Positions 8,946-25,473 of a DNA stretch of 54,985 nucleotides are shown piece by piece. Location of the stretch: NCBI GenBank assembly GCA_030648515.1, contig JAUSHK010000004.1:1-54985 (forward strand), given 5' to 3'. The notes under the pieces were generated by a model. That model saw only the letters and a list, made by a program, of their open reading frames with translations. It was not told where the DNA came from and did not search any database. Numbering within the stretch: position 1 is the stretch's first letter; the number at the start of each line of letters is the position of its first letter. Source of the DNA: Candidatus Jorgensenbacteria bacterium (lineage in GTDB: Bacteria; Patescibacteriota; Minisyncoccia; UBA6257; GWB1-50-10). The translations under genes were made by a program, and so were the position numbers.

Positions 8946-10004
8946 GTGAATCAAAAAACGATTTTAATCACAGGTGCTGCGGGTTTTATAGGCAGTAACA
9001 CGCTTATTTATCTCTTCAATAAGTATAAAAACTACAAGTTCGTTGTGCTTGATATCCTTACGTATGCCGCGGACCTTAGGAACATTCCTGACTACATAAA
9101 AACAAGCGGCAGATTTCAATTTTGGTACGGTGACGTTAAGAATGCAAAGCTGGTAGAGCATCTCGTGTCGCAGGCCGACATAGTAATCCATTTTGCCGCG
9201 GAAACGCACGTGTCGCGTTCCATTTATGACGACACCGCGTTTTTTGAGACGGATGTTTTAGGAACTCAGCGCGTCGCAAACGCCGTTCTTCATAACAGGA
9301 AGAAAGTTGAAAAATTTATACACATATCAACGAGCGAAGTATATGGCACGGCTGTTTCGGAAAAGATGGACGAAGACCACCCGCTTAATCCGCAAAGCCC
9401 ATACGCATCGGCGAAAGCCGGGGCTGATAGGCTAGTGTATTCGTATATTGCCACATATAAAATTCCAGCGACAATCATCCGACCATTCAATATGTACGGG
9501 CCGCAACAGCACCTTGAGAAACTTATTCCGCGGTTCATAACAAACTGTCTCTTGGGAGAGCAGCTCACTGTTCATGGCACCGGAGAAAGCAGCCGCGATT
9601 TCACGTTTGTGACTGATTTGGCGCGCGCCGTTGATTTGGTTATGCACGCTCCGCGGGAAAAAGTTGAAGGAGAAGTATTTAACGTCGGTTCGGAAAAAAG
9701 CCACTCCATTAACGAAGTCGCCGATCTTATCTTGAAAAAGATGAATGGGGGAAATCCGTCTGCTGGCAAGCAACACACGTCATTTGCCGTTCTTGTCGGA
9801 GACCGTCCTGGCCAGGTATTCCGTCATACGGCACATCATGGTAAAATTAAAACTGTTCTCGGTTGGACGCCGCTTGTTGATTTTGAGACGGGACTCGATA
9901 AGACAATCGCGTGGTATACGAGCAACCCGCGGTGGTGGAAAAACAAGCTTTGGATGCGCCATGTTCCGATTGAAACCGAGGAAGGCAAGACGGAGATGCA
10001 CTAA
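8946..10004 (+). CDS. rfbB: NDP-hexose 4,6-dehydratase (dTDP-glucose 4,6-dehydratase family)
   Basis: ILITGAAGFIGSN Rossmann motif, STSEVYG and YASAKAGADRLV (YxxxK). Length and C-terminus are typical of RmlB. GTG start. Confidence 0.85.
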   Translation: MNQKTILITGAAGFIGSNTLIYLFNKYKNYKFVVLDILTYAADLRNIPDYIKTSGRFQFWYGDVKNAKLVEHLVSQADIVIHFAAETHVSRSIYDDTAFFETDVLGTQRVANAVLHNRKKVEKFIHISTSEVYGTAVSEKMDEDHPLNPQSPYASAKAGADRLVYSYIATYKIPATIIRPFNMYGPQQHLEKLIPRFITNCLLGEQLTVHGTGESSRDFTFVTDLARAVDLVMHAPREKVEGEVFNVGSEKSHSINEVADLILKKMNGGNPSAGKQHTSFAVLVGDRPGQVFRHTAHHGKIKTVLGWTPLVDFETGLDKTIAWYTSNPRWWKNKLWMRHVPIETEEGKTEMH

Positions 10005-10015
10005 TTGTTTCGGTA

Positions 10016-11251
10016 ATGAACCCTCTTATTAAAGATAAAAAATTTGTTCCCAGTAAAGACTGGGTTTGGTATGCGCCGAACACAACAGACGCATTTGGCG
10101 AAAACGAAATTCAGGCCGTTATGGCGTCGCTTAAAAGCGGGTGGCTTACAACTGGCAAGATTACAAGAGAGTTTGAAAATAAAATCGCCGGGCTTTTCGG
10201 GAAAAAGTACGGCCTTTTTGTTAACTCCGGTTCTTCTGCAAATCTGCTTGCGCTTGAGGCGCTCAAGTTTCCGAAAGGTTCGGAAGTTATAACTCCGGCG
10301 TGCAATTTTAACACGACGGTTGCCCCGATTATTCAGACCGGGCTCAGGCCGGTTTTTGTTGATGTTGGGCTGGGGACGTACGTTATTGACGCCGATTCTT
10401 TAGAAAAAGCGCTATCAAAAAAGACCGTTGCTGTTTTTGCCCCGCACCTCATAGGCAACTTCGTTGATTTGCCGAAGATACGGGCATTTTGCAAAAAGCA
10501 TAAGCTCGTCTTTATTGAAGACAGCTGTGACACAATAGGTGGAAATTTCCACGGCGAACCGTCCGGCAAATTCAGCGATATCACGACGACGAGTTTCTAC
10601 GCGTCGCATCTTATTACTACCGGTGGCGCAGGCGGCATGCTCATGACAAATGACAAAAAAATCCGCGAACGCGCGCGGCTCTTTAGGGACTGGGGCAGGG
10701 GAATATCGCGCCACGACGAGAAAATCCGCTCGCGCCTCGCCACGTTCAAGATAGATGGCAAGCCGTATGACAGCGCGTTTGTTTTTGTAGAGCACGGATA
10801 TAATTTCAAGCCCACGGAAATGCAGGCCGCGTTCGGCTTAGAACAGCTCTCGCGGCTTCCGGGCTTTACCGAACTTCGTAGGTGTAATTTCAGCTATTTG
10901 CGTAATTTTTTCAAAAAGTTTGAGAAATTCTTTATTCTCCCGGAAGAAAAACCAAACACCATTACAAACTGGCTCGCGTTTCCGCTCACGATTAAAAAAG
11001 GCGCGCCGTTTAAGAGAAACGCGCTTGTAAAGTATCTTGAAGATAATAAGATTCAGACGCGCCCGCTTTTTTCGGGGAATATTTTAAAACAACCCGCGTA
11101 TCTCGCCGTATCGCACAACAGAATAGGGAATCTTGAAAATTCCCAGCACATTTTAGAGAACTCATTTCTTATCGGGCTTCATCACGGGCTTACCCAACTA
11201 ATGCTTGAATATGTTGCGGATACTTTTGAAAAATTTTTGAAAAAGCAATAA
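10016..11251 (+). CDS. PLP/PMP-dependent NDP-4-keto-6-deoxyhexose 3-dehydratase (RfbH/E1-ColD branch of the DegT family)
   Basis: GWLTTG, NSGSSANLLAL and FRDWGR closely resemble RfbH. SFYASHLITTGGAGG has His198 where aminotransferases have the Schiff-base Lys. Confidence 0.8.
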   Translation: MNPLIKDKKFVPSKDWVWYAPNTTDAFGENEIQAVMASLKSGWLTTGKITREFENKIAGLFGKKYGLFVNSGSSANLLALEALKFPKGSEVITPACNFNTTVAPIIQTGLRPVFVDVGLGTYVIDADSLEKALSKKTVAVFAPHLIGNFVDLPKIRAFCKKHKLVFIEDSCDTIGGNFHGEPSGKFSDITTTSFYASHLITTGGAGGMLMTNDKKIRERARLFRDWGRGISRHDEKIRSRLATFKIDGKPYDSAFVFVEHGYNFKPTEMQAAFGLEQLSRLPGFTELRRCNFSYLRNFFKKFEKFFILPEEKPNTITNWLAFPLTIKKGAPFKRNALVKYLEDNKIQTRPLFSGNILKQPAYLAVSHNRIGNLENSQHILENSFLIGLHHGLTQLMLEYVADTFEKFLKKQ

Positions 11252-11294
11252 ATTTGTTCCTGCGCCAGACATAATTGATGTTAATGTAGAAATA

Positions 11295-11328
11295 AAAAAT
11301 CCCAGCGTGAATCTTCGCTGGGATTTTT
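11295..11328. terminator. Bidirectional Rho-independent terminator between convergent genes
   Basis: aaaaatcccagcg-tgaatctt-cgctgggattttt, a perfect 13-bp stem with an A-tract and a T-tract. Confidence 0.85.
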
Positions 11329-11350
11329 GTTTAGACGTTTTTCAAATCGA

Positions 11351-11914
11351 TTATATCTCTACTCTCGGATGAAGAAGCATCCACGCTATCGCGTGAGGAA
11401 TCAACGTATTGCGGTGATGCTCGAGCGTGTTTTCCGGAAGATGGTTTGGGTCATAGAACCCTCCAAAATTCCCAGTAAACGGTCCCTTGTGGAATCCTAC
11501 CCATATCACGGCACGTTCCTGCCGTGTTGGGTTTTCTCCGCGTCCGGTGCCTTTCATAACGTCCGCATCGCATATCCTTATGACGCGTTGAACATTCAGG
11601 CTGTTTAAACCCTCCCCAGACTTGAAAGCGCGTCGGATTGCTTGTGCCTCGGTTTCTCCTGGTCGTTGCACGGTACCCGGACAATGTGATGGTTTGCCGG
11701 GGTATTCTTTGTCCCCGTCCGGTCTTGGTATCATAAATACTTGGCCGTGCTCGTCAAATATTATGATTTCCATCGGGCCTGATGGGAATTTTCCTACCCA
11801 TTTCGGGAAAATCTCGGGCGGTATGAAGCCATCCGGTATTCTTTCCATAAGGTCTGCACACTGCCTGATTTCCGCGGCTGATAGTGGTTCTTTTGCTTTG
11901 CTCGTTCCTGCCAT
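11351..11914 (-). CDS. Nudix-fold-like protein with a degenerate Nudix box
   Basis: CPGTVQRPGETEAQAIRRAFKSGEGL aligns without gaps to the MutT box FPGGKIEMGETPEQAVVRELQEEVGI, but RE-x2-EE is RA-x2-SG. GGAGGTG SD 5 nt before the ATG. Confidence 0.5.
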   Translation of the reverse strand: MAGTSKAKEPLSAAEIRQCADLMERIPDGFIPPEIFPKWVGKFPSGPMEIIIFDEHGQVFMIPRPDGDKEYPGKPSHCPGTVQRPGETEAQAIRRAFKSGEGLNSLNVQRVIRICDADVMKGTGRGENPTRQERAVIWVGFHKGPFTGNFGGFYDPNHLPENTLEHHRNTLIPHAIAWMLLHPRVEI

Positions 11915-11968
11915 TCAACACCTCCGTCGTTTTTGTTCTCGTACTGCGTTAGTTAATGGTCCGCGGAC

Positions 11969-11997
11969 AGTATAATCCATATTTCTATGAATGTCAA
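11969..11997 (-). promoter_or_regulatory. Sigma70-like promoter for 11351..11914
   Basis: On the minus strand: TTGACA-17 nt-TATACT. Confidence 0.5.
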
Positions 11998-12008
11998 GTG
12001 ATGATATA

Positions 12009-12036
12009 TTGACAAACAACTTTTTTATTCTAATAT
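12009..12036 (+). promoter_or_regulatory. Sigma70-like promoter for 12107..12439
   Basis: TTGACA (12009-12014)-16 nt-TAATAT (12031-12036). Its -35 lies 11 bp from the divergent -35. Confidence 0.55.
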
Positions 12037-12106
12037 AGCTTTAGCAATATAAGTCTGTTTTACACTATTTGTTTCACGCGCACTTTTAATTTAAAAGGAG
12101 GATGCG

Positions 12107-12439
12107 ATGTTTTCGATTAAGAGATTTGTTAAGGGTTTTTTAAGGATGCGTAAGACTGAAACGTGCCCCATTTGTGGAAGGTCGGCAACGTTCAGATCAA
12201 ATCTTTCTGCTCCTGCAATGGGCTCCAGTGAGAGCGGTTTTACAGGGTCGATTGATTGCGAACACTGTGACGAAAAGTTACTGAATTACCTTGGCGTATG
12301 CCCTGCTTCGGCGCAGACGAAGTGGGCCGAAGGCAGTAAAATACTGGCAGGGTACGGGCAATTTGAAGTTAATCCAGAAATAGAACCGTCCGGCGATAAT
12401 CAGCATCTCCTTGAACATATAATAAAAATCGCCGATTGA
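12107..12439 (+). CDS. Small Zn-ribbon-like protein (CPxC...CxxC), unknown function
   Basis: CPICG and CEHCD pairs. AGGAGG SD at 12096-12101. Confidence 0.6.
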   Translation: MFSIKRFVKGFLRMRKTETCPICGRSATFRSNLSAPAMGSSESGFTGSIDCEHCDEKLLNYLGVCPASAQTKWAEGSKILAGYGQFEVNPEIEPSGDNQHLLEHIIKIAD

Positions 12440-12475
12440 TATAATCCTCATCTCCCATCTCCCACAAATTAAGCA

Positions 12476-12507
12476 ACCCCAAACAATCAAGTTTGGGGAT
12501 TTTGCTT
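12476..12507 (+). terminator. Rho-independent terminator
   Basis: ccccaaac-aatcaa-gtttgggg followed by attttgcttt. Confidence 0.75.
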
Positions 12508-12543
12508 TAAAATAATGCTACAAATGCGCCGCTTAGCCAGCGA

Positions 12544-12572
12544 TTGATAAGTTTTCAGTCGTTATGTATAAT
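12544..12572 (+). promoter_or_regulatory. Sigma70-like promoter for the transketolase operon
   Basis: TTGATA-17 nt-TATAAT. Confidence 0.55.
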
Positions 12573-12610
12573 ATTGCAACTTGTGAAAAGCAATTCCACC
12601 CTTTATTGAT

Positions 12611-13450
12611 ATGGATAATTTTCATCAAAAAGATCAAGATTTAACGAAGCTCTTAGAAGAAAAGGCGCGCTGGGTCAGAAAAGAAACGTTCAAAATTTAC
12701 AAGATATCTCCAGGAATCCGTTTGGCCTCCTCGTTATCCGACGTAGAAATACTTGTCGCCTTGTATTACGGCGGAGTTTTAAAATTTGACCCCCAAAATC
12801 CTTATTGGGAGGGGAGGGACAGATTTATAGCCAGCAAGGGGCACGGGTCTATTTCACTGTATCCCATATTGGCTGATCTCGGTTTTTTTGATTTAAAAGA
12901 ACTAGCGAGGATTTCTCACGAGGGTTCGTTTTTGGCGGACATTCCGGATACCCGAATCCCGGGGTACGAAACCATAAACGGTTCCTTGGGACACGGACCT
13001 GGGGTTGCGTGCGGAATTGCCATCGGTTTGCAGAAGAAAAAGTCTGACGCCAGAGTTTTTGTTTTGACCGGGGATGGAGAATTAAACGAAGGGTCGGTTT
13101 GGGAAGCAGTTATGTTCGCCGGCCATCACAAACTGAATAATTTGATATTGATTGTTGATAATAATAAAACCTCAATGCTCAGCCGGAGTAAGGACATTAT
13201 TGATTTAGAGCCGCTGGAAAAAAAGTTTTCGGATTTCGGATGGAAAGTCGTAAGAATTGACGGCCATAATGCGATGAATGTTTACGAGACACTAAAGAAC
13301 TTAAAGGAAGACACAAGCGGGTATCCCAAAGTATTGATAGCGGATACTATTAAGGGCAAAGGCGTCTCGCAATTAGAAAGCGATGCAATGTCCCACAGCA
13401 GGGTATTAAAGGTAGAAGAAATTATTGACGCAGAAAGACAACTACAATGA
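12611..13450 (+). CDS. Transketolase, N-terminal (ThDP/PP-binding) subunit
   Basis: KGHGSISLYP, GSLGHGPGVACG and LTGDGELNEGSVWEAVMFAGHHKLNNLILIVDNN (ThDP GDG-N motif). Confidence 0.9.
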   Translation: MDNFHQKDQDLTKLLEEKARWVRKETFKIYKISPGIRLASSLSDVEILVALYYGGVLKFDPQNPYWEGRDRFIASKGHGSISLYPILADLGFFDLKELARISHEGSFLADIPDTRIPGYETINGSLGHGPGVACGIAIGLQKKKSDARVFVLTGDGELNEGSVWEAVMFAGHHKLNNLILIVDNNKTSMLSRSKDIIDLEPLEKKFSDFGWKVVRIDGHNAMNVYETLKNLKEDTSGYPKVLIADTIKGKGVSQLESDAMSHSRVLKVEEIIDAERQLQ

Positions 13451-14415
13451 ACCCCGAGCCATTAAAAAAATCAATGCGGGAAGTCTTAGTGGAAACTTTG
13501 CATCGAAGGATGCTCAACAACGACCGCCTTTTTCTTTTGTCCGACGATCTCGGGACTCCCGCTTTGGACAAAATAAGAAAAGATTTTAGTGATAAGTTCA
13601 TTAACGTCGGCATTGCCGAACAGAATATGGTCAATGTCGCGGCGGGGCTGGCTCTGGAGGGCTATGTTGTTTATACATATGCCATAGCGCCGTTTTTGAT
13701 GAGAGCGTATGAACAAATACGGTTGAACTTATGCGTGTCGAGCCAGATAAGGCCCGTTAATGTTAATTTGATAGGTGTTGGCGCGGGAGTGAGCTACGAC
13801 GTAGCCGGCGTAACGCACCACTGCTTGGAAGATGTCAGCATTATGAAGGTCTTGCCTAATATGATGGTGTTTTCTCCGAGCGACTGGAAATTAGTGGAAC
13901 TTTTTGTTGACTACTCAATTGAAAAAAAATCGCCAAAATATTTTCGCCTGGACGGTAAGCCGGTGCCGTCGATTTATGAAAATATTAACGACGTCGATTT
14001 TTCCAAAGGATTTTACGAGCTCGTGAGTCCGACGGCTGGAGGAGGGAAGGTTTGTTTGGTCACGACTGGCTATCCCACGCATCGCGCGCTCCAGGTTGCT
14101 AAAAAACTTCCCGGGGTCGGCGTCGTTGACGTTTTTATGCTGAAGCCGCTCAATGAAAAATTATTATTTGAGGCGCTAAAGAAGTACGATTCCGTCATTA
14201 CCATCGAAGAAGCATTTTTGAACGCTGGCGGACTTGATAATCTGATTCTTAAAATTCTCCGCGCCAATCGGTCAACAATTGAGCTAAACAGCCTTGGGTT
14301 TAATGACAAATACGTTTTTGATTCAGGAGGCAGAGATTATCTGCACGCGTTGAATGGTTTGGATGAGGGAAGTATTATAAAAACAGTGCAAAAACTTCTT
14401 GAGAGCAGTAAGTAA
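13447..14415 (+). CDS. Transketolase, C-terminal (pyrimidine-binding) subunit
   Basis: FINVGIAEQNMVNVAAGLALEG and THHCLEDVSIMKVLPNM. 4-nt overlap with the N-terminal subunit gene. Confidence 0.9.
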   Translation: MNPEPLKKSMREVLVETLHRRMLNNDRLFLLSDDLGTPALDKIRKDFSDKFINVGIAEQNMVNVAAGLALEGYVVYTYAIAPFLMRAYEQIRLNLCVSSQIRPVNVNLIGVGAGVSYDVAGVTHHCLEDVSIMKVLPNMMVFSPSDWKLVELFVDYSIEKKSPKYFRLDGKPVPSIYENINDVDFSKGFYELVSPTAGGGKVCLVTTGYPTHRALQVAKKLPGVGVVDVFMLKPLNEKLLFEALKKYDSVITIEEAFLNAGGLDNLILKILRANRSTIELNSLGFNDKYVFDSGGRDYLHALNGLDEGSIIKTVQKLLESSK

Positions 14416-14432
14416 TCCAAATTTATATTTCC

Positions 14433-15383
14433 ATGAAAAAAATATTAGTTGCGGGAGGAAGCGGACTTATCGGCGGGCATTTGGTAAAAAGTCTTTTGAA
14501 AGACGGTTTTGAGGTTCGCGCAGTCGGGAAGGGCAAGCTCCAGGATTGGAAACAGCTTCACGCCGGAGCTGAAAATATTTCTTTAGACCTGTCTCTTAAG
14601 GAAAATTGCGACAAAGTTATGGATGGCGTTGATAGGGTTTATAACTTAGCCGCAGAGATTGGAGGGGTTAATTTTATTGAGAAGCAGAAAGCCCAGACAA
14701 TGCTTTCTGTTTTAATCAATACCCATCTTCTTATGGCCGCGCGGGCGATGCAAGTACAAAGATATTTTTATTCTTCGACATGCGCCGTGGCTGTTGCCGA
14801 GGTTCCGCAAGAAGGCAAGGCGTTAACCGATGTTATTGAAGATGGGCATGTCTGGGAAAAACTTTTCAGCGAGAAGCTTTGCAAGTATTTTCGCGAGGAT
14901 TTTGGTCTGCCTACCAGAATCGGGCGGCTTCAGAATGTATATGGGCCATATGATATCTATGACGGCGGCAGGGAACGCGCTCCCGCTGCCCTATGTCGGA
15001 AAGCGGTTATTGCCAAAGCATCAGGCAATCACGACCTTGAAATTTGGGGAGATGGCACGCAGATTCGAAGCTTTATATTTGTTTCGGACGCCGTAGAAGG
15101 AATACGCAAGCTTGCTGAAGGCGATATTGTTAATCCCGTAAGAATAGGAAGCAATGAATTTGTAACGATAAATCAGCTTGTTGACGCCGTGGAGAAAGCG
15201 GCTGGCATACAATTTAACAGAAAATACAACACAAGCGCGCCCAAAGGCATTGAGCGCAAACTGGGTCCGGAGACCGCGGCTGATAAAGAATTTAACTGGA
15301 AGCCGAAGACGTCTTTGACGGAAGGAATAAAGGTGATGTACGATTGGATTCAAGAAGATATGAAGCAAAAAGGGAAGATATAA
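14433..15383 (+). CDS. GDP-mannose 3,5-epimerase-like extended SDR (catalytic set appears altered)
   Basis: GVDRVYNLAAEIGG, IGRLQNVYGP, GGRERAPAALCRKA, EIWGDGTQIRSFIFVSDAVEG and NPVRIGS are collinear with plant GME. Confidence 0.75.
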   Translation: MKKILVAGGSGLIGGHLVKSLLKDGFEVRAVGKGKLQDWKQLHAGAENISLDLSLKENCDKVMDGVDRVYNLAAEIGGVNFIEKQKAQTMLSVLINTHLLMAARAMQVQRYFYSSTCAVAVAEVPQEGKALTDVIEDGHVWEKLFSEKLCKYFREDFGLPTRIGRLQNVYGPYDIYDGGRERAPAALCRKAVIAKASGNHDLEIWGDGTQIRSFIFVSDAVEGIRKLAEGDIVNPVRIGSNEFVTINQLVDAVEKAAGIQFNRKYNTSAPKGIERKLGPETAADKEFNWKPKTSLTEGIKVMYDWIQEDMKQKGKI

Positions 15384-15388
15384 CACAT

Positions 15389-16420
15389 ATGAAATTAGCA
15401 ATTGTTTCTACGACTATAAACGGGGAAAAGGGCTATCTGCCTTTTGATAAGCTTGCGGAGCATAGCAAGTTCTCTGAAATAATTTTTGTCATTGCCGGCG
15501 ATACGTCATCAAAGCCGTTTGATACGAGCGCCTTCAAATGCAAAATAGAGCACATTTTACCGAAGGATCAGGAGCGTTTCTCCGTGAGTAATATTATTGG
15601 CTGGAAAACGCAGAAGCGCAGAAGTGTCGCATTTTTGCGGGCAATTGAATTAAATCCTGATTTTATTTTAAGCATTGACGACGACAACATACCTGAGCCG
15701 GATTATTTCGACCGGTGGTACGATGTTTTAACCAAGGATGCTACGAAAACCGTTGAGCCGACGAAAACCGTTGAGCCGGCGCATTGGCACAACTATCTTA
15801 AAACCGCAGATGCGCCTATTGAGATGTATCCGCGCGGTTTTCCTATGCCATTTCTCTGGCAAGATGCCACGGCGGTTACGGATGCGAAACAGCCAATCCC
15901 AGCGAACCGGATTGGACTTTTTCAGGGTATATCTCTTGGCGACCCGGATATTGACGGACGAACGCGGCTTGTTTATCCGAAGCATCTTCCCTTAAATTCT
16001 GTTCGCGAAAAGAATTATTGTTTGAAGAATGTTTGGTCGCCTTACAATACACAGAACACCATTTTCGCAAAAATACTTTTTCCGCTCATTTTTATGTGGC
16101 CCTTCGCGGAACGCATGGATGACATCTTCGCTTCTTTCGCGTGGCAGAAAGTACTCTTTAATAATGATATGTACGTTCACGTCGGGGACGCGGTAAATAG
16201 GCAGGATCGCGGAGTTAGGGACGTTTATAAAAATGACTTTTTGACCGAAGTCGAGGGGTACGTGCACGGGCATGAGGTATGGGCAGACATCAACACCATT
16301 ACCGAAAAAGATTCCATGAAATTCCTTGAGAAGCTCGCGGAATCGCAGAACGATATTATTAAGAGGCACAAACCTTACTTTGAGGCGCATTTGAAAGATA
16401 TGCGCAGGATTTACGGCTAA
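15389..16420 (+). CDS. Reversibly-glycosylated-polypeptide (RGP / GT75, UDP-arabinopyranose-mutase-like) family protein
   Basis: ILSIDDDNIP (DDD motif), YPRGFPMPF, GISLGDPDIDGRTRLV and ERMDDIFASFAWQKV parallel RGP1 segments TIDDDCFV, VRGYPFSLR, LNIPDYDAPTQLV and GRYDDMWAGWCVKV. ATG 15389 chosen because it lies just after the upstream stop. Confidence 0.5.
   Translation: MKLAIVSTTINGEKGYLPFDKLAEHSKFSEIIFVIAGDTSSKPFDTSAFKCKIEHILPKDQERFSVSNIIGWKTQKRRSVAFLRAIELNPDFILSIDDDNIPEPDYFDRWYDVLTKDATKTVEPTKTVEPAHWHNYLKTADAPIEMYPRGFPMPFLWQDATAVTDAKQPIPANRIGLFQGISLGDPDIDGRTRLVYPKHLPLNSVREKNYCLKNVWSPYNTQNTIFAKILFPLIFMWPFAERMDDIFASFAWQKVLFNNDMYVHVGDAVNRQDRGVRDVYKNDFLTEVEGYVHGHEVWADINTITEKDSMKFLEKLAESQNDIIKRHKPYFEAHLKDMRRIYG
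15743..15778 (+). repeat. Perfect in-frame 18-bp tandem duplication (acgaaaaccgttgagccg x2, TKTVEP x2)
   Basis: Identical units at 15743-15760 and 15761-15778. Confidence 0.9.
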
Positions 16421-16443
16421 AAACAATACGCATCTGATACGGC

Positions 16444-16944
16444 ATGAGCATTATAGATATAAAAGATCTCCCTTCTATCCGGGAGAAGCACAAAAACGAA
16501 AAAATTGCATTTTGCGCCGGCGCGTTTGATCTTGTTCACGCCGGGCACGTTCTCTTCTTTGAGGATTGCAAAAAATACGGCGATATTCTCGTGGTAATGG
16601 TTGGCAATGATTTCAACTTAAAGAATTATAAAGGCGAAGAGCGTCCGATATTAAATCAGTATGTCCGGCTAAAAATGATATCGTCTCTTAAGCCGGTTGA
16701 TTATGCCCTTCTTGACCTTGACGCGTCAGACAAGGATTTCCTGGCCATTATCCGCTCAGTGTTTATTGAATTAAAGCCAGATTTTTATATTGTTAATGCC
16801 GATGCGTTTGATATGCCGCGGCGCTATGAATTGGTGAAAGGATTGCCGACGAAGCTCGTTGTTCTTGAACGGACATGTCCGCCGGAGTTTGAAGATATAT
16901 CAACAACTGGCATCATTAAGAAAATCAGGGAAGGGAAAAAATAA
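16444..16944 (+). CDS. Cytidylyltransferase-fold nucleotidyltransferase (HldC/RfaE-domain-II or TagD-like)
   Basis: AGAFDLVHAGHVLFF (HxGH), then KGEERPILNQYVRLKMISSLKPVDY resembles the RfaE domain II KGxxRPI...R...L..VD. Confidence 0.7.
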   Translation: MSIIDIKDLPSIREKHKNEKIAFCAGAFDLVHAGHVLFFEDCKKYGDILVVMVGNDFNLKNYKGEERPILNQYVRLKMISSLKPVDYALLDLDASDKDFLAIIRSVFIELKPDFYIVNADAFDMPRRYELVKGLPTKLVVLERTCPPEFEDISTTGIIKKIREGKK

Positions 16945-16955
16945 AAAGTAATAAA

Positions 16956-16997
16956 AGAAAAAGCGTGCCACGGGAAAACCCGGGACACGCTTTTTTT
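16956..16997. terminator. Bidirectional terminator between convergent genes
   Basis: gcgtgccacggg-aaaa-cccgggacacgc (10 of 12 positions paired) flanked by an A-tract and ttttttt. Confidence 0.75.
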
Positions 16998-17002
16998 GAT
17001 GA

Positions 17003-17581: not shown

Positions 17582-17638
17582 AAAACCGTCCTTTCTATTT
17601 ATTAGTTTAGTTATTAATTTACTTAACCAGCTTTTTTA

Positions 17639-17667
17639 ATTGTGCTCCCTTTTCTCCGATTTGTCAA
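17639..17667 (-). promoter_or_regulatory. Possible promoter for the Nudix gene
   Basis: On the minus strand: TTGACA-17 nt-CACAAT (weak -10). Confidence 0.35.
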
Positions 17668-17705
17668 GTCGGCATACTAATGTGGCGGAACTTAAAAACA
17701 GACTC

Positions 17706-17745: not shown

Positions 17746-18300
17746 ATGAATAATTCCAATAGTATATCTAAAAATAAGGCACTCTTTCTTGATAGAGACG
17801 GAGTTGTCTGTGAAGCTCTGAATCCTAACGACGGGAAGAACGGCTACCTGATTAAACCCGAGGAATGCGAACTGCTTCCCGGTATTAAGGAGCTTGTAAC
17901 CAGCGCCAAAGAAAAAGGATATGTTGTCGTGGTAGTCAGCAACCAGCCCCAAATAGCCAAAGGGCTTCTTAAAGAAGGGGAGCTTGCCAGAGTTCATTTG
18001 AAGATACAGAATTTGTTAGATAATAAAATTGATAAAATATATCATTGTCCGCACAAAGATGAAGACAATTGCGATTGTCGGAAGCCGAAAGCGGGAATGC
18101 TCAAACGAGCCGCGGAAGAATTGAATATCGATTGTACGAAATCAGTGATGGTGGGGGATGGCGATAAGGATATCTTTGCCGGCCAGGCGGTCGGTTGTAA
18201 GACCATTTTTATAAAGAACAAGTTCAAGGAACAGTATTTGGCCAATTGTTCGCCTGACTATACAGTTACGCGTCTTTCGGAGGTTATTCCTTTGATTTAA
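17746..18300 (+). CDS. gmhB: D,D-heptose 1,7-bisphosphate phosphatase (HAD-IIIA, GmhB/HisB-N family)
   Basis: LFLDRDGVV (DxD), VVVSNQ, CPHKDEDNCDCRKPKAGM (Zn-loop Cys plus RKP) and GDGDKD. Confidence 0.8.
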   Translation: MNNSNSISKNKALFLDRDGVVCEALNPNDGKNGYLIKPEECELLPGIKELVTSAKEKGYVVVVVSNQPQIAKGLLKEGELARVHLKIQNLLDNKIDKIYHCPHKDEDNCDCRKPKAGMLKRAAEELNIDCTKSVMVGDGDKDIFAGQAVGCKTIFIKNKFKEQYLANCSPDYTVTRLSEVIPLI

Positions 18301-20716: not shown

Positions 20717-21235
20717 ATGATTGAAATTAAAAAAACAAAGCTGGAGGGGGTTCTGCTTATTAAGCCGGACGTTTTTGAAGACTTTCGCGGCAAATATGTT
20801 TCTCCGTATAACAAGGAGGAGTTCCAGAAAGCGGGGATTTCAGTTGACTTCGTGTGCGAGGATTACTCAACTTCTACGAGGGGCGTTCTTCGCGGCGTCC
20901 ACGCCGATTCTAATAATTGGAAGCTTATTTCCTGCAGGCGCGGCAGGTTTTATTTTGTCGTGGTGAACTGCGATAAAAACTCAAAAGAGTTTCGAAAGTG
21001 GGAATCGTTCGTTCTTTCCGAAGAAAACCATTTGCACGTGCTCGTCCCGCCGACATTCGGCAACGGGCATTTTGCCTTGAGCGACGAAGTTGAATTTCAT
21101 TATCTGCAGTCCAACTACTATGATCCGTCCAGGCAGACCTCATATCGGTACGATGACCCGCAGTTTAATATTTGGTGGCCGACTAAAAATCCGATTCTTT
21201 CCCAGAGAGACGAAGCGGGGAAGTACGTAGAGTAG
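20717..21235 (+). CDS. NDP-4-dehydro-6-deoxyhexose 3,5-epimerase (RmlC-like cupin)
   Basis: LEGVLLIKPDVFEDFRGKYV, RGVHAD and KLISCRRGRFYFVVVN are typical of the RmlC family. Confidence 0.8.
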   Translation: MIEIKKTKLEGVLLIKPDVFEDFRGKYVSPYNKEEFQKAGISVDFVCEDYSTSTRGVLRGVHADSNNWKLISCRRGRFYFVVVNCDKNSKEFRKWESFVLSEENHLHVLVPPTFGNGHFALSDEVEFHYLQSNYYDPSRQTSYRYDDPQFNIWWPTKNPILSQRDEAGKYVE

Positions 21236-24483: not shown

Positions 24484-25473
24484 ATGATGGTTATTACAAA
24501 AACGCCTTTACGAGTATCCTTCTTTGGCGGCGGCACGGATTACCCCGCGTGGGTTAAAGAATATGGCGGAGCCGTACTTAGCACATCCATTGATAAATAT
24601 TCGCATCTGTACGTGCAGCGCCTTCTGCCATTTTTTTCCTACAAAACGAAAATAGTTTGGTCTCGAATAGAGGAGGTCGGCGCCATTAATGAAATAGCTC
24701 ATCCTTCAGTGCGCGAAACTCTGCGTTTTATGAATTTGGACGGCGGATTGGCTATCACGTATAACGGGGATTTGCCCGCCAGATCGGGCGTCGGTTCAAG
24801 CTCGTCTTTTACTGTCGGCTTTCTTCACGCGCTTTACGGGCTTAAAAAGGTTACCCCTGATAAAAAAAAGTTAGCGGAAGAAGCGATTCATATTGAGCAA
24901 AATTGCATTAAAGAAAACGTCGGATCGCAGGATCAGATTGCCGCTGCCTTTGGCGGATTCAATAAAATAGAGTTCAATAAAGACGGCAGTTTCACTGTCA
25001 TGCCGATACAGCTGAGCAAGGAGAGGTGTGAAAATTTGCAAAAACACATGATGCTCTTTTTCACAGGTTTTTCCCGGAACGCCTCAGACGTCGCTCATGA
25101 ACAGATTAAAAATATTCCCAATAAAATAAAAGAGCTTCACGCAATGCATGGAATGGTCGATGAGGCTATCGGCATACTGCAGCGCAATGGCGATTGGCTC
25201 GGGGATTTTGGCCGGCTTCTCAATAAAAGCTGGGAACTCAAAAGAGACCTTTCGGCGCATATATCAAATGACGCAATTGATAATCTTTATAAACGGGCAA
25301 TGGACGCCGGAGCGCTTGGCGGCAAACTCCTTGGCGCCGGTGGCGGAGGATTTTTTCTTGTGTATGCCCGGCCGGAAAAACAAAAGAAAATACGCGCTGC
25401 GCTTTCCGAATTGCTCTATGTTCCATTCGCCTTTGAAAATGAGGGTAGTAAAATAATCTACCAGGCGCATTAG
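24484..25473 (+). CDS. GHMP-family sugar kinase (HddA-like, D-glycero-D-manno-heptose 7-phosphate kinase type)
   Basis: TPLRVSFFGGGTDYPAW, PARSGVGSSSSFTV (GHMP motif II) and KLLGAGGGGFFL. Confidence 0.75.
   Translation: MMVITKTPLRVSFFGGGTDYPAWVKEYGGAVLSTSIDKYSHLYVQRLLPFFSYKTKIVWSRIEEVGAINEIAHPSVRETLRFMNLDGGLAITYNGDLPARSGVGSSSSFTVGFLHALYGLKKVTPDKKKLAEEAIHIEQNCIKENVGSQDQIAAAFGGFNKIEFNKDGSFTVMPIQLSKERCENLQKHMMLFFTGFSRNASDVAHEQIKNIPNKIKELHAMHGMVDEAIGILQRNGDWLGDFGRLLNKSWELKRDLSAHISNDAIDNLYKRAMDAGALGGKLLGAGGGGFFLVYARPEKQKKIRAALSELLYVPFAFENEGSKIIYQAH

What the first reader, a model, noticed from the sequence alone, without database searches (positions are those of the whole stretch)
8946..16944. 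Gene set suggesting a C-branched or otherwise unusual 3,6-dideoxyhexose pathway
In order, the genes are: an NDP-hexose 4,6-dehydratase, a ColD/RfbH-type 3-dehydratase, a split ThDP-dependent transketolase, a GME-like SDR, an RGP-like protein and a cytidylyltransferase-fold enzyme. The first two steps generate an NDP-3,6-dideoxy-4-keto-hexose. In yersiniose A biosynthesis that same intermediate receives a two-carbon branch from a ThDP enzyme (YerE) and is then reduced. Here a transketolase could play the ThDP role and would transfer a glycolaldehyde-type unit. The product would then be a C-branched dideoxy sugar made by a different enzyme family. This is an inference from gene content, and the substrate nucleotide (GDP, CDP or dTDP) is unknown.
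Basis: inference. Interest (0 to 1): 0.7.

Follow-up and report, generated by a model that had tools for sequence, protein, structure and literature searches.

The report
Odd split transketolase in sugar-tailoring locus
A surface-sugar gene cluster of an uncultured (Patescibacteria-like) bacterium carries a two-part transketolase-like enzyme that has lost the hallmarks of the housekeeping enzyme and that, in many unrelated microbes, sits beside enzymes that make keto-deoxy sugars, so it most likely adds a carbon branch to an activated sugar, a reaction never yet demonstrated for this enzyme family.

Summary
All six gene identifications are confirmed: RmlB-like 4,6-dehydratase, His-type RfbH/E1-like 3-dehydratase, split transketolase (TK)-like pair, GDP-mannose-3,5-epimerase-like SDR, GT75/RGP-like protein and a cytidylyltransferase-fold protein. 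They are not one linear pathway. RmlB/RfbH form their own transcript, and GME+GT75 is a separable furanose-forming pair. The TK pair is non-canonical. It keeps the ThDP/metal motifs but lacks human-TK His37, His110, Ser345, His416 and Asp424. Among 83 comparison loci, TK-like pairs with Gly at the His416 position have a DegT gene within 10 kb in 28 of 38 cases (21 His-type). Pairs with any other residue there have none in 45. The window-type signature sits beside a His-type DegT in 12 of 14 loci from at least nine lineages, usually with a Cj1427-like C4-dehydrogenase, HddA/HddC-like genes and B12 radical-SAM enzymes. The window carries these partners at 24484-27324, apart from the radical-SAM gene. 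In the reverse test, 10 of 17 RfbH orthologues with enough flank are followed by an SDR and a TK-like pair. The chemistry stays inferred: most likely ThDP-dependent C-branching of an NDP-4-keto-3-deoxy sugar, possibly a GDP-heptose, with an unknown donor. Verdict: partly supported, a new variant of a known kind.

The parts
8946..10004 (+). RmlB-family NDP-sugar 4,6-dehydratase
   Evidence: Pfam GDP_Man_Dehyd and Epimerase. TIGR01181 scores 312 bits, below the 365 cut-off. PDB 6BI4 scores 235 bits. Orthologues at 64-74% identity always lie directly upstream of RfbH orthologues.
10016..11251 (+). PMP-type 3-dehydratase: E1/RfbH-like, His in place of the Schiff-base Lys, no [2Fe-2S] Cys motif
   Evidence: NF011936 scores 403 bits. 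3BCX scores 300 bits and ColD about 200 bits. The 'SFYASH' motif is visible. The Cys motif 'RDC.C..GKDNTC' is present in L033/34/54/61/78 but absent here.
11295..11328 (.). Bidirectional terminator-like hairpin separating the RmlB/RfbH transcript from what follows
   Evidence: 13-pair stem followed by a T-run.
11351..11914 (-). 187-aa ORF with a faint NUDIX resemblance; a recurrent neighbour of RfbH orthologues
   Evidence: Pfam NUDIX E = 0.006, below threshold. Homologues at 28-39% identity lie next to RfbH in L095, L097, L100, L102 and L111.
12107..12439 (+). 110-aa ORF with a CxxC...C pattern, function unknown
   Evidence: No significant Pfam hit. It is followed by the hairpin at 12477-12498.
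12544..12572 (+). Best sigma-70-like promoter match of the region, 39 nt upstream of TK_N
   Evidence: TTGATA-17-TATAAT, 11 of 12 matches. This is a consensus match only.
12611..13450 (+). TK-like N subunit (ThDP/PP domain), non-canonical: Arg37 and Ile111 replace human-TK His37 and His110
   Evidence: Transketolase_N scores 114 bits. NF004559 scores 209 bits against a cut-off of 488. Split TK 6YAK scores 187 bits. All 120 best homologues have Ile or Met at the His110 position, and Arg37 is invariant in the 29-sequence alignment A1. The position mapping is corrected.
13447..14415 (+). TK-like C subunit (Pyr + C domains), non-canonical: Pro, Gly and Ala replace Ser345, His416 and Asp424; Glu366, Arg318 and Arg474 are kept
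   Evidence: Transket_pyr and Transketolase_C. Alignments to 6YAJ and 4KXU. Signature table.
14433..15383 (+). GDP-mannose 3,5-epimerase-like SDR
   Evidence: PDB 2C59 and 8SG0 score about 200 bits over the full length. Orthologues at 73-79% identity always lie directly upstream of GT75.
15389..16420 (+). GT75-family (RGP/MtdL-like) putative NDP-pyranose/furanose mutase; the ORF opens at TTG 15344 and the likely start is ATG 15389
   Evidence: MtdL structures 7XPR/7YUA score 67 bits, E = 2e-17, with DDDN, Arg90, Gln229 and Arg257 aligned (residue roles from PMC9937993). 159 homologues were found; the few that carry a source name are Patescibacteria or 'bacterium' hypothetical proteins.
16444..16944 (+). 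Cytidylyl/adenylyl-transferase-fold protein (RfaE-domain-II-like), part of a variable insert
   Evidence: PF01467. TIGR02199 scores 79.5 bits against a cut-off of 181. PDB 3ELB and 3GLV. Absent from L086 and L087 and present in L091 at 73% identity.
17746..18300 (+). GmhB-like HAD phosphatase (heptose bisphosphate phosphatase type)
   Evidence: NF006506 scores 140 bits against a cut-off of 178. Homologues lie next to GHMP/NTP in L087 and L009.
20717..21235 (+). RmlC-fold sugar 3,5-epimerase
   Evidence: PF00908. It scores about equally against C. jejuni GDP-4-keto-heptose epimerases (8DCO, 7M14) and dTDP RmlC proteins, about 110 bits each.
24484..25473 (+). HddA-like GHMP sugar-1-kinase; conserved partner of the TK clade
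   Evidence: NF049969 scores 165 bits, below cut-off. Homologues at 50-57% identity lie next to the TK pair in L007-L011, L013, L015, L017 and L018.
25492..26250 (+). HddC-like sugar-1-phosphate nucleotidylyltransferase
   Evidence: NF049965 scores 197 bits against a cut-off of 300. It co-occurs with the TK clade.
26389..27324 (+). Cj1427-like SDR (GDP-heptose C4-dehydrogenase type); the most conserved partner of the TK clade
   Evidence: PDB 6VO6/6VO8 score 386 bits, E = 9e-115, over the full length. Homologues at 52-71% identity lie next to the TK pair in 12 of 14 window-type loci, and the gene is fused to the His-type DegT in L004.

Best explanation
The interval lies inside a surface-glycan locus of about 42 kb (Wzy at 2795, flippase and initiating transferase at 41608-44399). 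The host is a Patescibacteria-like organism. The interval is a mosaic of three nucleotide-sugar tailoring modules.

(1) RmlB-like 4,6-dehydratase plus a cluster-less E1/RfbH-like PMP 3-dehydratase. Together they would make an NDP-4-keto-3,6-dideoxy sugar. The family assignments are shown; the product is inferred.

(2) A split transketolase-fold ThDP enzyme. It keeps the cofactor machinery but has lost the canonical donor-binding and phosphate-binding residues. It belongs to a clade that is embedded across many phyla in operons with four kinds of partner:
- a His-type DegT 3-dehydratase;
- a Cj1427-like C4-dehydrogenase;
- HddA/HddC/GmhB-like GDP-heptose genes;
- often B12 radical-SAM enzymes.
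Most likely it is not a pentose-phosphate enzyme. It more likely acts as a carboligase that adds a two-carbon unit to the C4 carbonyl of the NDP-4-keto-3-deoxy(-6-deoxy) sugar. That sugar could be a hexose or a GDP-heptose, and the product would carry a tertiary-alcohol branch. This is the reaction YerE performs in yersiniose synthesis, done here by a different ThDP fold. The donor is unknown. The His-to-Arg and His-to-Ile changes suggest an alpha-keto acid such as pyruvate or hydroxypyruvate rather than a ketose phosphate. All of point (2) beyond the residue pattern and the gene neighbourhoods is inferred.

(3) A GME-like epimerase plus a GT75 mutase, an MtdM/MtdL-like pair. It would make an L-galacto-configured GDP-furanose. 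This is inferred from homology and from conserved pairing.

The cytidylyltransferase-fold gene belongs to a variable insert and is not part of the branching route.
For: Gene identities.

Non-canonical TK:
- Alignments to human TK (4KXU) and to the characterised split TK (6YAK/6YAJ) show His37->Arg, His110->Ile, Ser345->Pro, His416->Gly and Asp424->Ala. The GDG...NN motif, Glu366, His77, His258, Arg318 and Arg474 are kept.
- All 120 closest homologues have Ile or Met at the His110 position, and Arg37 is invariant in a 29-sequence alignment of them.
- NCBIfam TK models score 209 and 133 bits against a cut-off of 488.

Co-occurrence, from the TK side:
- 12 of 14 loci with the window-type signature have a His-type DegT within 10 kb, against 0 of 26 canonical loci (p = 1.6e-8).
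- Pairs with Gly at the His416 position have a DegT nearby in 28 of 38 loci, against 0 of 45 for all other pairs (p = 5e-14).
- The 14 loci include five Patescibacteria-type contigs (three distinct places) and nine GTDB genomes: Planctomycetota, Syntrophorhabdus, an unclassified bacterium, a Methanoperedenaceae archaeon, Elusimicrobiota, Desulfovibrio, Methylococcales, Spirochaetes and Chitinivibrionales.

Co-occurrence, from the dehydratase side:
- Of 17 RfbH orthologues (at least 66% identity) with at least 4 kb of downstream sequence, 10 are followed within 6 kb by a TK-like pair and 13 by an SDR314-like reductase.
- After the 4,6- and 3-dehydratase steps the only carbonyl left is C4, so a ThDP enzyme acting on that product would branch at C4 (established deoxysugar chemistry).

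Other support:
- Two different TK-like pairs occur in one glycan locus (L086) or in tandem (L089).
- The His-type DegT is fused to the Cj1427-like SDR directly downstream of the TK pair in L004.
- A D-2-hydroxyacid dehydrogenase lies between TK_C and DegT in L018, which hints at an alpha-keto-acid donor.
- Split-gene TKs have already been proposed, but never shown, to branch keto sugars in miharamycin and amipurimycin biosynthesis (PMC12247030).
- GME+GT75 are paired without any TK in L088 and with GmhA in L087.
Against: - There is no biochemical evidence for any TK-superfamily enzyme that uses an NDP-keto-sugar as acceptor. The literature calls this function 'still pending'.
- In the window the TK operon is separated from RmlB/RfbH by terminator-like hairpins and two unrelated ORFs.
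- The TK type (TK1) and the SDR314 that normally follow this RfbH lineage are absent from the window. The window's TK clade normally pairs with a different, ColD-like DegT (about 30% identity to the window RfbH) and usually with a B12 radical-SAM enzyme that the window lacks.
- Fcl/Cj1428-like C4-reductases are common in loci of the TK clade. This would be unexpected if C4 always became a tertiary alcohol.
- L087 has an orthologue of the TK2 type next to the Cj1427-like, HddA-like and HddC-like genes but no DegT within 10 kb of the GT75 gene; the RfbH orthologue lies further along the same contig.
- The identification of PDB 6VO6 as Cj1427 rests on my memory. The PDB name is only 'putative sugar-nucleotide epimerase/dehydratase'.
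- The donor inference rests on residue changes alone.
Confidence: 0.5

Rival explanations
1. Precursor supply. The TK-like pair makes sedoheptulose-7-phosphate, or another ketose phosphate, to feed the neighbouring GmhA/HddA/GmhB/HddC-type GDP-heptose pathway. It is placed in the glycan locus only for co-regulation.
For: Sedoheptulose-7-P is both the transketolase product and the starting point of GDP-heptose synthesis (PMC10680097). HddA-, HddC- and GmhB-like genes are frequent neighbours of the clade, and GmhA (SIS) is present in L009, L087 and L099.
Against: Residues that bind the sugar phosphate (Ser345, His416), read the acceptor C2-OH (Asp424) and hold the donor (His37, His110) are all replaced. 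The 28 canonical-type split TKs in the same scan keep them and never sit next to DegT genes. Two different TK-like pairs in one locus (L086, L089) are hard to explain as supply. The TK1-type pairs follow RmlB/RfbH/SDR314, not heptose-phosphate genes. GmhA is absent from the window's 55 kb.
Confidence: 0.12
2. A different C-C chemistry on the nucleotide sugar. The pair lengthens or shortens the exocyclic chain of a GDP-heptose or hexose by two carbons, giving octose or nonose formation or C6-C7 removal from a 6-keto intermediate. Alternatively it acts at a carbonyl other than C4. The DegT and SDR genes would then act before or after it.
For: The clade's most constant partner is a Cj1427-like dehydrogenase that keeps the C6/C7 diol (PMC10680097). 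Fcl/Cj1428-like 4-reductases are common, which implies that a C4 keto group often survives to the end. Several B12 radical-SAM enzymes and, in L090, an extra E1 alpha/beta pair plus an HMGL-like enzyme suggest extensive carbon-skeleton editing.
Against: No dehydrogenase that would make a C6 or C7 carbonyl has been identified. In the RmlB/RfbH/SDR314/TK1 cassettes C6 is a methyl group and C4 is the only electrophile. The donor-site His residues needed to handle a hydroxymethyl ketone are lost in the window's clade.
Confidence: 0.2
3. Unlinked neighbours in this particular genome. RmlB/RfbH plus another SDR simply make an ordinary unbranched 3,6-dideoxy sugar (colitose/abequose-like). The lineage's branching cassette (SDR314 + TK1) has been lost from the window. 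The remaining TK-like pair serves an unrelated sugar, or is a remnant.
For: RmlB/RfbH and the TK operon are separate transcription units. SDR314, unk234 and TK1 are absent with no remnants. Seven of 17 RfbH orthologues with enough flank have no TK nearby. ColD-type products are normally just reduced (PMC10680097).
Against: The window's TK clade is accompanied by a His-type DegT in 12 of 14 other loci, and RfbH is the only DegT homologue detected in the 55-kb window. Both TK ORFs are intact, overlap by 4 nt and keep every cofactor-binding residue. The closest relative (80/81% identity) sits in tandem with a TK1 pair in the same kind of locus.
Confidence: 0.15

Closest known systems
Yersiniose A pathway (DdhA-D, then YerE ThDP/FAD carboligase, then YerF reductase) of Yersinia pseudotuberculosis
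   Same: The logic and gene set match: a nucleotide-sugar 4,6-dehydratase, a PMP-dependent His-type 3-dehydratase, a ThDP enzyme and an SDR reductase, all in a cell-surface glycan locus. In relatives of the window these sit in one cassette, RmlB-RfbH-SDR314-TK1. YerE transfers activated acetaldehyde from pyruvate to CDP-3,6-dideoxy-4-keto-D-glucose (PMC12247030).
   Different: YerE belongs to the decarboxylase (acetolactate-synthase-like) ThDP superfamily, whereas this enzyme has a split transketolase fold. The 3-dehydratase here lacks the E1 [2Fe-2S] motif, and no E3 reductase is present in the window. The nucleotide and the sugar (hexose or heptose) are unknown. No activity has been shown.
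Split-gene transketolases proposed for C-branching of a deoxy-keto sugar in miharamycin/amipurimycin biosynthesis, plus 13 further Streptomyces BGC transketolases
   Same: The same protein superfamily, the same two-gene architecture and the same proposed role: a carboligase with a keto-sugar acceptor (PMC12247030 section 2.3).
   Different: Those enzymes come from actinomycete secondary-metabolite clusters and are thought to transfer a hydroxyacetyl unit. The function is unproven in vitro. The present clades sit in cell-surface glycan loci of Patescibacteria, an archaeon and many other phyla, and the window's clade has lost the donor-site His residues. Sequence relatedness to the Streptomyces enzymes could not be tested because no sequences were available.
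alpha-KADH2 (E1 alpha/beta-like) sugar-branching enzymes (aldgarose, kibdelomycin KbDH-alpha/beta, avilamycin, trioxacarcin, paulomycin)
   Same: A two-subunit ThDP enzyme that adds a C2 unit from pyruvate to a C3 or C4 keto group of a deoxysugar, after which the branch ketone is often reduced (PMC12247030). An E1_dh alpha/beta pair occurs in the related locus L090.
   Different: A different ThDP superfamily. For the window N subunit, E1_dh scores 45 bits and Transketolase_N 114 bits. These enzymes are known only from natural-product clusters.
Campylobacter jejuni GDP-heptose tailoring toolbox (HddA, HddC, GmhA/B, Cj1427 C4-dehydrogenase, PLP/Glu C3-dehydratase, Cj1430 epimerase, Cj1428 reductase)
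   Same: The window and the TK-clade loci carry HddA-, HddC- and GmhB-like genes, a Cj1427-like SDR (386 bits to 6VO6), an RmlC-fold epimerase, Fcl-like reductases and a His-type 3-dehydratase. Cj1427 plus the C3-dehydratase make GDP-3-deoxy-4-keto-heptose in vitro (PMC10680097).
   Different: C. jejuni has no ThDP enzyme, no B12 radical-SAM enzyme and no GT75 mutase in these clusters; its mutases are FAD-dependent. The HddA-, HddC- and GmhB-like proteins here score below the equivalog cut-offs.
MtdM/MtdL (A201A) and Hyg20: GDP-mannose 3,5-epimerase plus GT75 GDP-L-galactose/fucose pyranose-furanose mutase
   Same: Adjacent GME-like and GT75-like genes. The DDD(N) motif, Arg90, Gln229 and Arg257 align (PMC9937993).
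   Different: The match to MtdL is only 67 bits. The Mn-binding His287 aligns with Gln. There is no Pfam RGP hit. The setting is a glycan locus rather than an antibiotic cluster, and the substrate could be a heptose (GmhA lies directly upstream in L087).

Membership tests
Canonical transketolase (EC 2.2.1.1, including bona fide split TKs such as C. hydrogenoformans 6YAK) | ThDP/metal-binding GDG...NN motif and the cofactor-activating Glu (human Glu366) | tested here: met
   GDGE and DNN are conserved, as is Glu in 'GIAEQN'.
Canonical transketolase (EC 2.2.1.1, including bona fide split TKs such as C. hydrogenoformans 6YAK) | Donor-site histidines His37 and His110 (human numbering; E. coli His26 and His100) | tested here: not met
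   Arg37 and Ile111 in the window. The clade signature is RHIH, against HHHH in canonical loci.
Canonical transketolase (EC 2.2.1.1, including bona fide split TKs such as C. hydrogenoformans 6YAK) | Sugar-phosphate binding residues Ser345 and His416, and the acceptor-reading Asp424 | tested here: not met
   Pro, Gly and Ala stand at these positions. Arg318 and Arg474 are retained.
Canonical transketolase (EC 2.2.1.1, including bona fide split TKs such as C. hydrogenoformans 6YAK) | Score at or above the curated NCBIfam equivalog cut-off | tested here: not met
   NF004559 scores 208.8 bits (N subunit) and 132.5 bits (C subunit) against a cut-off of 488.
Canonical transketolase (EC 2.2.1.1, including bona fide split TKs such as C. 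hydrogenoformans 6YAK) | Xu5P/R5P/S7P transketolase activity, and being the cell's pentose-phosphate-pathway enzyme | not testable with these tools
   This needs an enzyme assay and a complete genome. Only 55 kb of the genome is available.
YerE-type sugar-branching carboligase | Decarboxylase-superfamily fold (TPP_enzyme_N/M/C, FAD-binding) | tested here: not met
   The pair has a transketolase fold. TPP_enzyme_C gives only 28 bits over the shared ThDP motif.
YerE-type sugar-branching carboligase | Genomic association with an NDP-sugar 4,6-dehydratase, a His-type 3-dehydratase and a reductase | tested here: met
   Window genes 8946-11251 lie upstream. The association holds in 12 of 14 and 10 of 17 loci in the two directions.
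YerE-type sugar-branching carboligase | Transfer of a C2 unit to the C4 keto group of an NDP-3,6-dideoxy-4-keto sugar | not testable with these tools
   Requires in-vitro reconstitution with LC-MS and NMR.
E1 / RfbH (CDP-6-deoxy-L-threo-D-glycero-4-hexulose 3-dehydrase) | DegT fold with His replacing the PLP-binding Lys | tested here: met
   The motif 'SFYASH' aligns with E1 'SFYPAH'. 3BCX scores 300 bits.
E1 / RfbH (CDP-6-deoxy-L-threo-D-glycero-4-hexulose 3-dehydrase) | [2Fe-2S] cluster Cys motif | tested here: not met
   The segment 'RDCYCAPGCDNTC' of E1 is replaced by 'RGI---SRHDEKI'. The protein has only four Cys residues and no CxC.
E1 / RfbH (CDP-6-deoxy-L-threo-D-glycero-4-hexulose 3-dehydrase) | E3 (AscD-type) reductase partner | tested here: not met
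   The Pfam scans of the window ORFs show no FNR/ferredoxin-type reductase within the glycan locus. The only flavoprotein found is a thioredoxin-reductase-like ORF at 45448-46380, just outside it.
ColD-type PMP 3-dehydratase (glutamate-recycling, no Fe-S) | His in the Lys position, no Fe-S motif, no E3 requirement | tested here: met
   See the E1 rows. The sequence is closer to E1 (300 bits) than to ColD (200 bits). The mechanism is inferred.
GT75 NDP-pyranose/furanose mutase (RGP, MtdL, Hyg20) | DXD (DDD) motif plus Arg90, Gln229 and Arg257 of MtdL | tested here: met
   The HMMER alignment to 7YUA/7XPR shows 'SIDDDNIP', 'KRRS', 'TQNT' and 'ERMDD' aligned. Residue roles come from PMC9937993.
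GT75 NDP-pyranose/furanose mutase (RGP, MtdL, Hyg20) | Mn2+-coordinating His287 | tested here: inconclusive
   It aligns with Gln in a low-confidence terminal part of the alignment. No structure was predicted.
GT75 NDP-pyranose/furanose mutase (RGP, MtdL, Hyg20) | Match to the Pfam RGP family | tested here: not met
   No Pfam family reaches E <= 0.001. The only hit is Glyco_tranf_2_3 at E = 0.024.
[quoted passage not shown] | HddA, HddC and GmhB equivalogs | tested here: inconclusive
   These are the best-matching families, but all score below cut-off: 165 against 600, 197 against 300, and 140 against 178 bits.
[quoted passage not shown] | GmhA (SIS) isomerase | tested here: not met
   No SIS homologue was found in the 55-kb window by tblastn. 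One is present in the related loci L009, L087 and L099.
[quoted passage not shown] | Cj1427-like SDR | tested here: met
   386 bits, E = 9e-115, over the full length to PDB 6VO6/6VO8. That this entry is Cj1427 is from my own knowledge.

The most novel reading that the evidence does not exclude
Several clades of split transketolase-fold enzymes (the window's RHIH/PEGAHR type, the TK1 type and the TK2 type) would be dedicated nucleotide-sugar carboligases. They would branch or extend 4-keto-deoxy hexoses and heptoses for cell-surface glycans in Patescibacteria, archaea and at least eight other bacterial lineages. Under this reading they act as interchangeable, serotype-like tailoring cassettes. 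This would be the first physiological ketone-acceptor reaction established for the transketolase superfamily. It would also imply a hidden diversity of C-branched, higher-carbon sugars on the surfaces of uncultured microbes.
Probability: 0.45. Interest if true: 0.8.

Novelty: new variant of a known kind. Interest (0 to 1): 0.68.

Why it matters
ThDP-dependent branching of deoxysugars is established for YerE in lipopolysaccharide and for E1-like enzymes in antibiotics. For transketolases it is only a proposal, described in 2025 as 'still pending'. This analysis adds three things. First, a residue signature separates glycan-locus TK-like pairs from housekeeping split transketolases: Gly at the His416 position, loss of Asp424 and Ser345, and, in the window's clade, Arg and Ile at His37 and His110. 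Second, these pairs are tightly and reciprocally linked to His-type 3-dehydratases and to GDP-heptose tailoring genes across very distant lineages. Third, there are cassette-level candidates for direct testing, including one cultured organism. If the function is confirmed, it would add a new enzyme class for making tertiary-alcohol sugars, which is useful for biocatalysis. It would also predict unusual branched or extended sugars on the envelopes of candidate-phyla-radiation bacteria, whose surface chemistry is essentially unknown.

Tried and rejected
- Housekeeping TK. I first expected the pair to be the ordinary split pentose-phosphate TK of a small Patescibacteria genome, because the best hits are annotated 'transketolase'. 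I rejected this after the neighbourhood look-ups and the residue analysis.
- CDP-alditol route (TK, then a cytidylyltransferase, then an SDR). No support: the cytidylyltransferase is missing from the syntenic loci L086 and L087.
- An alignment error of my own. I first mapped human His37 onto Ile35. Inspection of the MAFFT and HMMER alignments shows it aligns with Arg37. The later tables use the corrected column.
- N-terminal extension of the TK_N homologue P0102. It looked HIT-like by eye but has no Pfam hit, so I dropped it.
- Remnants of SDR314, unk234 or TK1 in the 11200-12650 gap. None found.
- An exact-sequence look-up of the window's TK_N found no record.
- One literature search (Cj1427 OR transketolase) was uninformative. 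No paper in the library combines 'transketolase', 'O-antigen gene cluster' and 'branched'.
- No tRNA genes and no Rfam matches in the window.
- I did not attempt a structure prediction of the TK heteromer. The active site lies between subunits, and the tool folds single window-encoded chains only.

Full report
**1. What is in the window.**
The 55-kb window is dominated by a surface-glycan locus. It holds a Wzy-type polymerase/ligase (2795-4156), many GT1/GT2/GT4 glycosyltransferases and five methyltransferases. It also holds a PseB/FnlA-like dehydratase, a UDP-GlcNAc 2-epimerase, a Wzx-type flippase (41608-43080, minus strand) and an initiating sugar transferase (43077-44399, minus strand). 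The closest protein relatives that carry a source name come from Patescibacteria/Paceibacterota MAGs. No tRNA or Rfam element is present.

**2.
- 8946-10004 is an RmlB-family 4,6-dehydratase (TIGR01181 312 bits, below the 365 cut-off; PDB 6BI4 235 bits).
- 10016-11251 is closest to the Yersinia E1/RfbH 3-dehydrase (3BCX, 300 bits), with ColD at about 200 bits. It has His where aminotransferases have the Schiff-base Lys ('SFYASH'). It lacks the Cys-rich [2Fe-2S] segment of E1, and no E3-type reductase is present in the window. It should therefore work like ColD, with PMP recycled by an amino donor (the mechanism is inferred).
- 12611-13450 and 13447-14415 are the two halves of a transketolase-fold enzyme.
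- 14433-15383 is a GDP-mannose 3,5-epimerase homologue (2C59, 200 bits).
- 15389-16420 has no Pfam hit but matches the GT75 mutase MtdL (E = 2e-17).
- 16444-16944 has the cytidylyltransferase fold.

**3. The genes are not one operon.**
After RfbH comes a 13-bp-stem bidirectional hairpin (11295-11328), then a minus-strand ORF (11351-11914) and a small plus-strand ORF (12107-12439). A second hairpin follows (12477-12498), and then the best promoter-like site of the region (12544-12572), 39 nt before TK_N. TK_N, TK_C, GME, GT75 and the cytidylyltransferase-fold gene are tightly packed, with a 4-nt overlap and gaps of 5 to 23 nt.

**4. The transketolase is not a canonical transketolase.**
I compared the pair with human TK (4KXU) and with the biochemically characterised split TK of Carboxydothermus (6YAK/6YAJ), using HMMER alignments.
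- Kept: the GDG...NN ThDP/metal motif, the activating Glu, His77, His258, Arg318 and Arg474.
- Replaced: His37 by Arg, His110 by Ile, Ser345 by Pro, His416 by Gly and Asp424 by Ala.

From established TK enzymology, His37 and His110 hold the donor, Ser345 and His416 hold the sugar phosphate, and Asp424 reads the acceptor C2-OH. I first mis-assigned the His37 column and corrected it. All 120 closest database homologues have Ile or Met at the His110 position, and Arg37 is invariant in a 29-sequence alignment. The NCBIfam TK equivalog model scores 209 and 133 bits against a cut-off of 488.

**5. Co-occurrence, from the TK side.**
Three context look-ups of homologues showed TK_N-TK_C followed directly by a DegT gene. 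A 312-aa SDR comes next, then further SDRs and B12 radical-SAM enzymes, all inside glycan loci. In L004 the DegT and the SDR are fused. A scan of one genome per GTDB species returned 80 loci. I called ORFs in them, labelled the ORFs by BLAST and typed each TK pair and each DegT by active-site residues.

| TK signature | Loci | With DegT within 10 kb |
|---|---|---|
| Window type (RHIH / PEG[AS]HR) | 14 | 12, all His-type |
| Canonical (HHHH / [ST]EHD..) | 26 | 0 |
| 'SESLHR' type | 12 | 0 |
| Any pair with Gly at the His416 position | 38 | 28 (21 His-type) |
| Any pair with another residue there | 45 | 0 |

- Window type against canonical: Fisher p = 1.6e-8.
- Gly at the His416 position against all other pairs: p = 5e-14 for any DegT and p = 1e-9 for His-type.
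- The 14 window-type loci are five Patescibacteria-type contigs (three distinct places) and nine GTDB genomes. The nine are Planctomycetota, Syntrophorhabdus, an unclassified bacterium, a Methanoperedenaceae archaeon, Elusimicrobiota, Desulfovibrio, Methylococcales, Spirochaetes and Chitinivibrionales.
- A second group of TK-like pairs (L033, L034, L054, L061, L078) sits next to genuine E1-type RfbH genes that carry the Cys motif, together with CDP-glucose-pathway-like genes.

**6. The constant partners of the window's TK clade.**
The 312-aa SDR has an orthologue in the window at 26389-27324 (about 70% identity). It matches PDB 6VO6/6VO8 at 386 bits. I recall that entry as C. jejuni Cj1427, the GDP-heptose C4-dehydrogenase; the PDB title is generic. 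The other recurrent partners are:
- an HddA-like GHMP kinase (window 24484-25473) and an HddC-like nucleotidyltransferase (window 25492-26250);
- a GmhB-like phosphatase (window 17746-18300), and sometimes GmhA;
- Fcl/Cj1428-like reductases;
- a B12 radical-SAM enzyme.

The window has neither GmhA nor the radical-SAM gene. The Raushel laboratory showed that Cj1427 plus a PLP/glutamate C3-dehydratase make GDP-3-deoxy-4-keto-heptose in vitro (PMC10680097). The DegT-SDR fusion in L004 suggests that this is a natural intermediate in these loci.

**7. Co-occurrence, from the dehydratase side.**
A metagenome scan with the window's RfbH found 31 orthologous loci at 66% identity or more. Of the 17 with at least 4 kb of downstream sequence, 13 carry an SDR ('SDR314') and 10 carry a TK-like pair within 6 kb. 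The typical order is RmlB-RfbH-(unk234)-SDR314-TK1N-TK1C-GME-GT75.

L086 is syntenic with the window. Eleven shared genes are 52-83% identical, and nine of them are at least 73% identical. L086 nevertheless carries two other TK-like pairs:
- TK1 (signature HWIH/GESYHR), in the position of the window's pair;
- TK2 (signature HHHH/MEADHY), between HddC and the Cj1427-like SDR.

In L089 the closest relative of the window's pair (80/81% identity) lies directly after a TK1 pair. The window itself has no SDR314, unk234 or TK1, and no remnants of them. TK-like pairs therefore behave as exchangeable tailoring cassettes in these glycan loci. That pattern is hard to reconcile with a housekeeping role.

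**8. GME, GT75 and the cytidylyltransferase.**
GME-like and GT75-like genes are always adjacent in relatives (L086, L087, L091, L104, L119). A GT75 homologue (59% identity) is paired with an SDR in L088, where there is no TK at all. In L087 GmhA lies directly upstream of the pair. The characterised bacterial GT75 enzymes, MtdL and Hyg20, convert GDP-L-galactose or GDP-L-fucose from pyranose to furanose, downstream of a GDP-mannose 3,5-epimerase (PMC9937993). I therefore read this pair as a separate furanose-forming module for a hexose or a heptose. The DDD motif, Arg90, Gln229 and Arg257 align with MtdL, but the Mn-binding His287 does not, so family membership is only partly established. The cytidylyltransferase-fold gene, two NUDIX-type ORFs, the GmhB-like phosphatase and two P-loop kinases form a variable insert (16444-20594). 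The insert is absent from L086 and L087 and partly present in L091.

**9. Most likely mechanism.**
- Shown: the family assignments, the altered active-site residues, and the conserved neighbourhoods.
- Inferred: the TK-like pair is a ThDP carboligase acting on a nucleotide-activated keto sugar.

After a 4,6-dehydratase and a 3-dehydratase, the only electrophilic carbon left is the C4 ketone. The simplest reaction is then the addition of a ThDP-bound C2 unit at C4. This gives a 4-C-branched 3,6-dideoxy sugar, as YerE does. In relatives an SDR (SDR314) could play the YerF-type reductase role. In the window, the acceptor could be the RmlB/RfbH product. It could also be a GDP-4-keto(-3-deoxy)-heptose made by the Cj1427-like enzyme with or without RfbH.

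The donor is unknown. Loss of the two donor-site His residues, the invariant Arg, and a D-2-hydroxyacid dehydrogenase between TK_C and DegT in L018 all hint at an alpha-keto acid rather than a ketose phosphate. I put about 0.5 on this overall reading. I put about 0.75 on the weaker claim that the pair is a nucleotide-sugar tailoring enzyme rather than a pentose-phosphate transketolase.

**10. Rivals.**
- (a) Sedoheptulose-7-P supply for the adjacent GDP-heptose genes. This is attractive because of the neighbours. The lost phosphate-binding and acceptor residues argue against it, as do the duplicated TK types and the TK1 cassettes that have no heptose-phosphate genes.
- (b) Other C-C chemistry, such as two-carbon extension or removal on the heptose side chain. 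The retained C6/C7 diol and the frequent Fcl-like 4-reductases favour this. No enzyme that would make the required carbonyl is visible.
- (c) In this genome the modules are unlinked. RmlB/RfbH would then simply make an unbranched dideoxy sugar, because the lineage's SDR314-TK1 cassette has been lost.

**11. Comparison with what is known.**
The closest functional analogue is the yersiniose pathway, which has the same logic but a different ThDP superfamily. The closest structural analogues are the split-gene TKs proposed, but never demonstrated, to branch a deoxy-keto sugar in miharamycin and amipurimycin biosynthesis. A 2025 review states that this function is 'still pending' and that all known candidates come from Streptomyces (PMC12247030). 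Sugar branching by E1-like (alpha-KADH2) enzymes is established only in natural products. A search of the held library for 'transketolase', 'O-antigen gene cluster' and 'branched' together found no paper.

**12. Verdict.**
The finding is best classed as a new variant of a known kind: ThDP-dependent sugar branching carried out by a divergent split transketolase fold, in cell-surface glycan loci of many lineages. I score interest at 0.68. The comparative signal is strong and yields directly testable enzymes, but the chemistry remains entirely inferential.

Noticed in passing
window 16444-20594: A variable insert, absent from the syntenic loci L086 and L087. It holds an RfaE-domain-II-like nucleotidyltransferase, a NUDIX hydrolase (minus strand), a GmhB-like HAD phosphatase, two tandem AAA_33 P-loop kinases (minus strand) and a 277-aa ORF with a faint HD-domain match. 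It looks like a second sugar-phosphate or alditol-phosphate activation module that uses non-PfkB kinases.
   Followed up: partly
window 15389-16420; P0121-P0240: The GT75-like protein has 159 detectable homologues. None of the 120 listed has a precomputed Pfam domain, and the few that carry a source name are 'hypothetical protein' from Patescibacteria or unclassified bacteria. This is a large, unannotated bacterial branch of a family known mainly from plants plus two actinomycete enzymes.
   Followed up: partly
L086 7249-9004 and 15489-17263; L089 209-2792: Two different non-canonical TK-like pairs occur in a single glycan locus (L086). In L089 two pairs lie in direct tandem (TK1 type, then the window's type). 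The three TK types have distinct active-site signatures: HWIH/GESYHR, HHHH/MEADHY and RHIH/PEGAHR.
   Followed up: partly
L004 11800-14043 (also L005): A natural fusion of the His-type DegT (3-dehydratase type) with the Cj1427-like SDR, 747 aa, directly downstream of the TK pair. It suggests that C4 oxidation and C3 deoxygenation are coupled.
   Followed up: no
L090 12148-15861: The same locus as a window-type TK pair also encodes a class I/II aminotransferase, an HMGL-like (homocitrate/isopropylmalate-synthase-like) enzyme and an E1_dh alpha/beta pair. That makes a second ThDP system and another C-C-forming enzyme in one glycan locus.
   Followed up: no
window 11351-11914 (-); L095, L097, L100, L102, L111: The 187-aa ORF between RfbH and the TK pair is not a random insertion. 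Homologues at 28-39% identity recur beside RfbH orthologues. It has only a sub-threshold NUDIX match (E = 0.006).
   Followed up: partly
L086 5586-6290; L100, L104, L112, L119: A conserved protein of about 234 aa with no Pfam hit ('unk234') often lies between RfbH and SDR314 in the RmlB-RfbH-SDR314-TK1 cassette, and is duplicated in L104 and L119. It is absent from the window.
   Followed up: no
window 36304-37421: A 249-aa SDR ORF is followed, with a 4-nt overlap, by a 123-aa ORF. This lies just after a PseB/FnlA-like dehydratase (35217-36278) and before a UDP-GlcNAc 2-epimerase (39187-40350). It looks like an FnlA/B/C-type 6-deoxy-hexosamine route in which the middle gene may be split.
   Followed up: no
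window 28522-34299: An unusually high density of methyltransferases within about 6 kb (two FkbM-type and two or three class-I SAM enzymes), interleaved with glycosyltransferases. The glycan is probably heavily methylated.
   Followed up: no
L018 11780-12712: A D-isomer-specific 2-hydroxyacid dehydrogenase lies between TK_C and the His-type DegT in a Rhodospirillales genome. It could supply an alpha-keto-acid donor (pyruvate or hydroxypyruvate).
   Followed up: no
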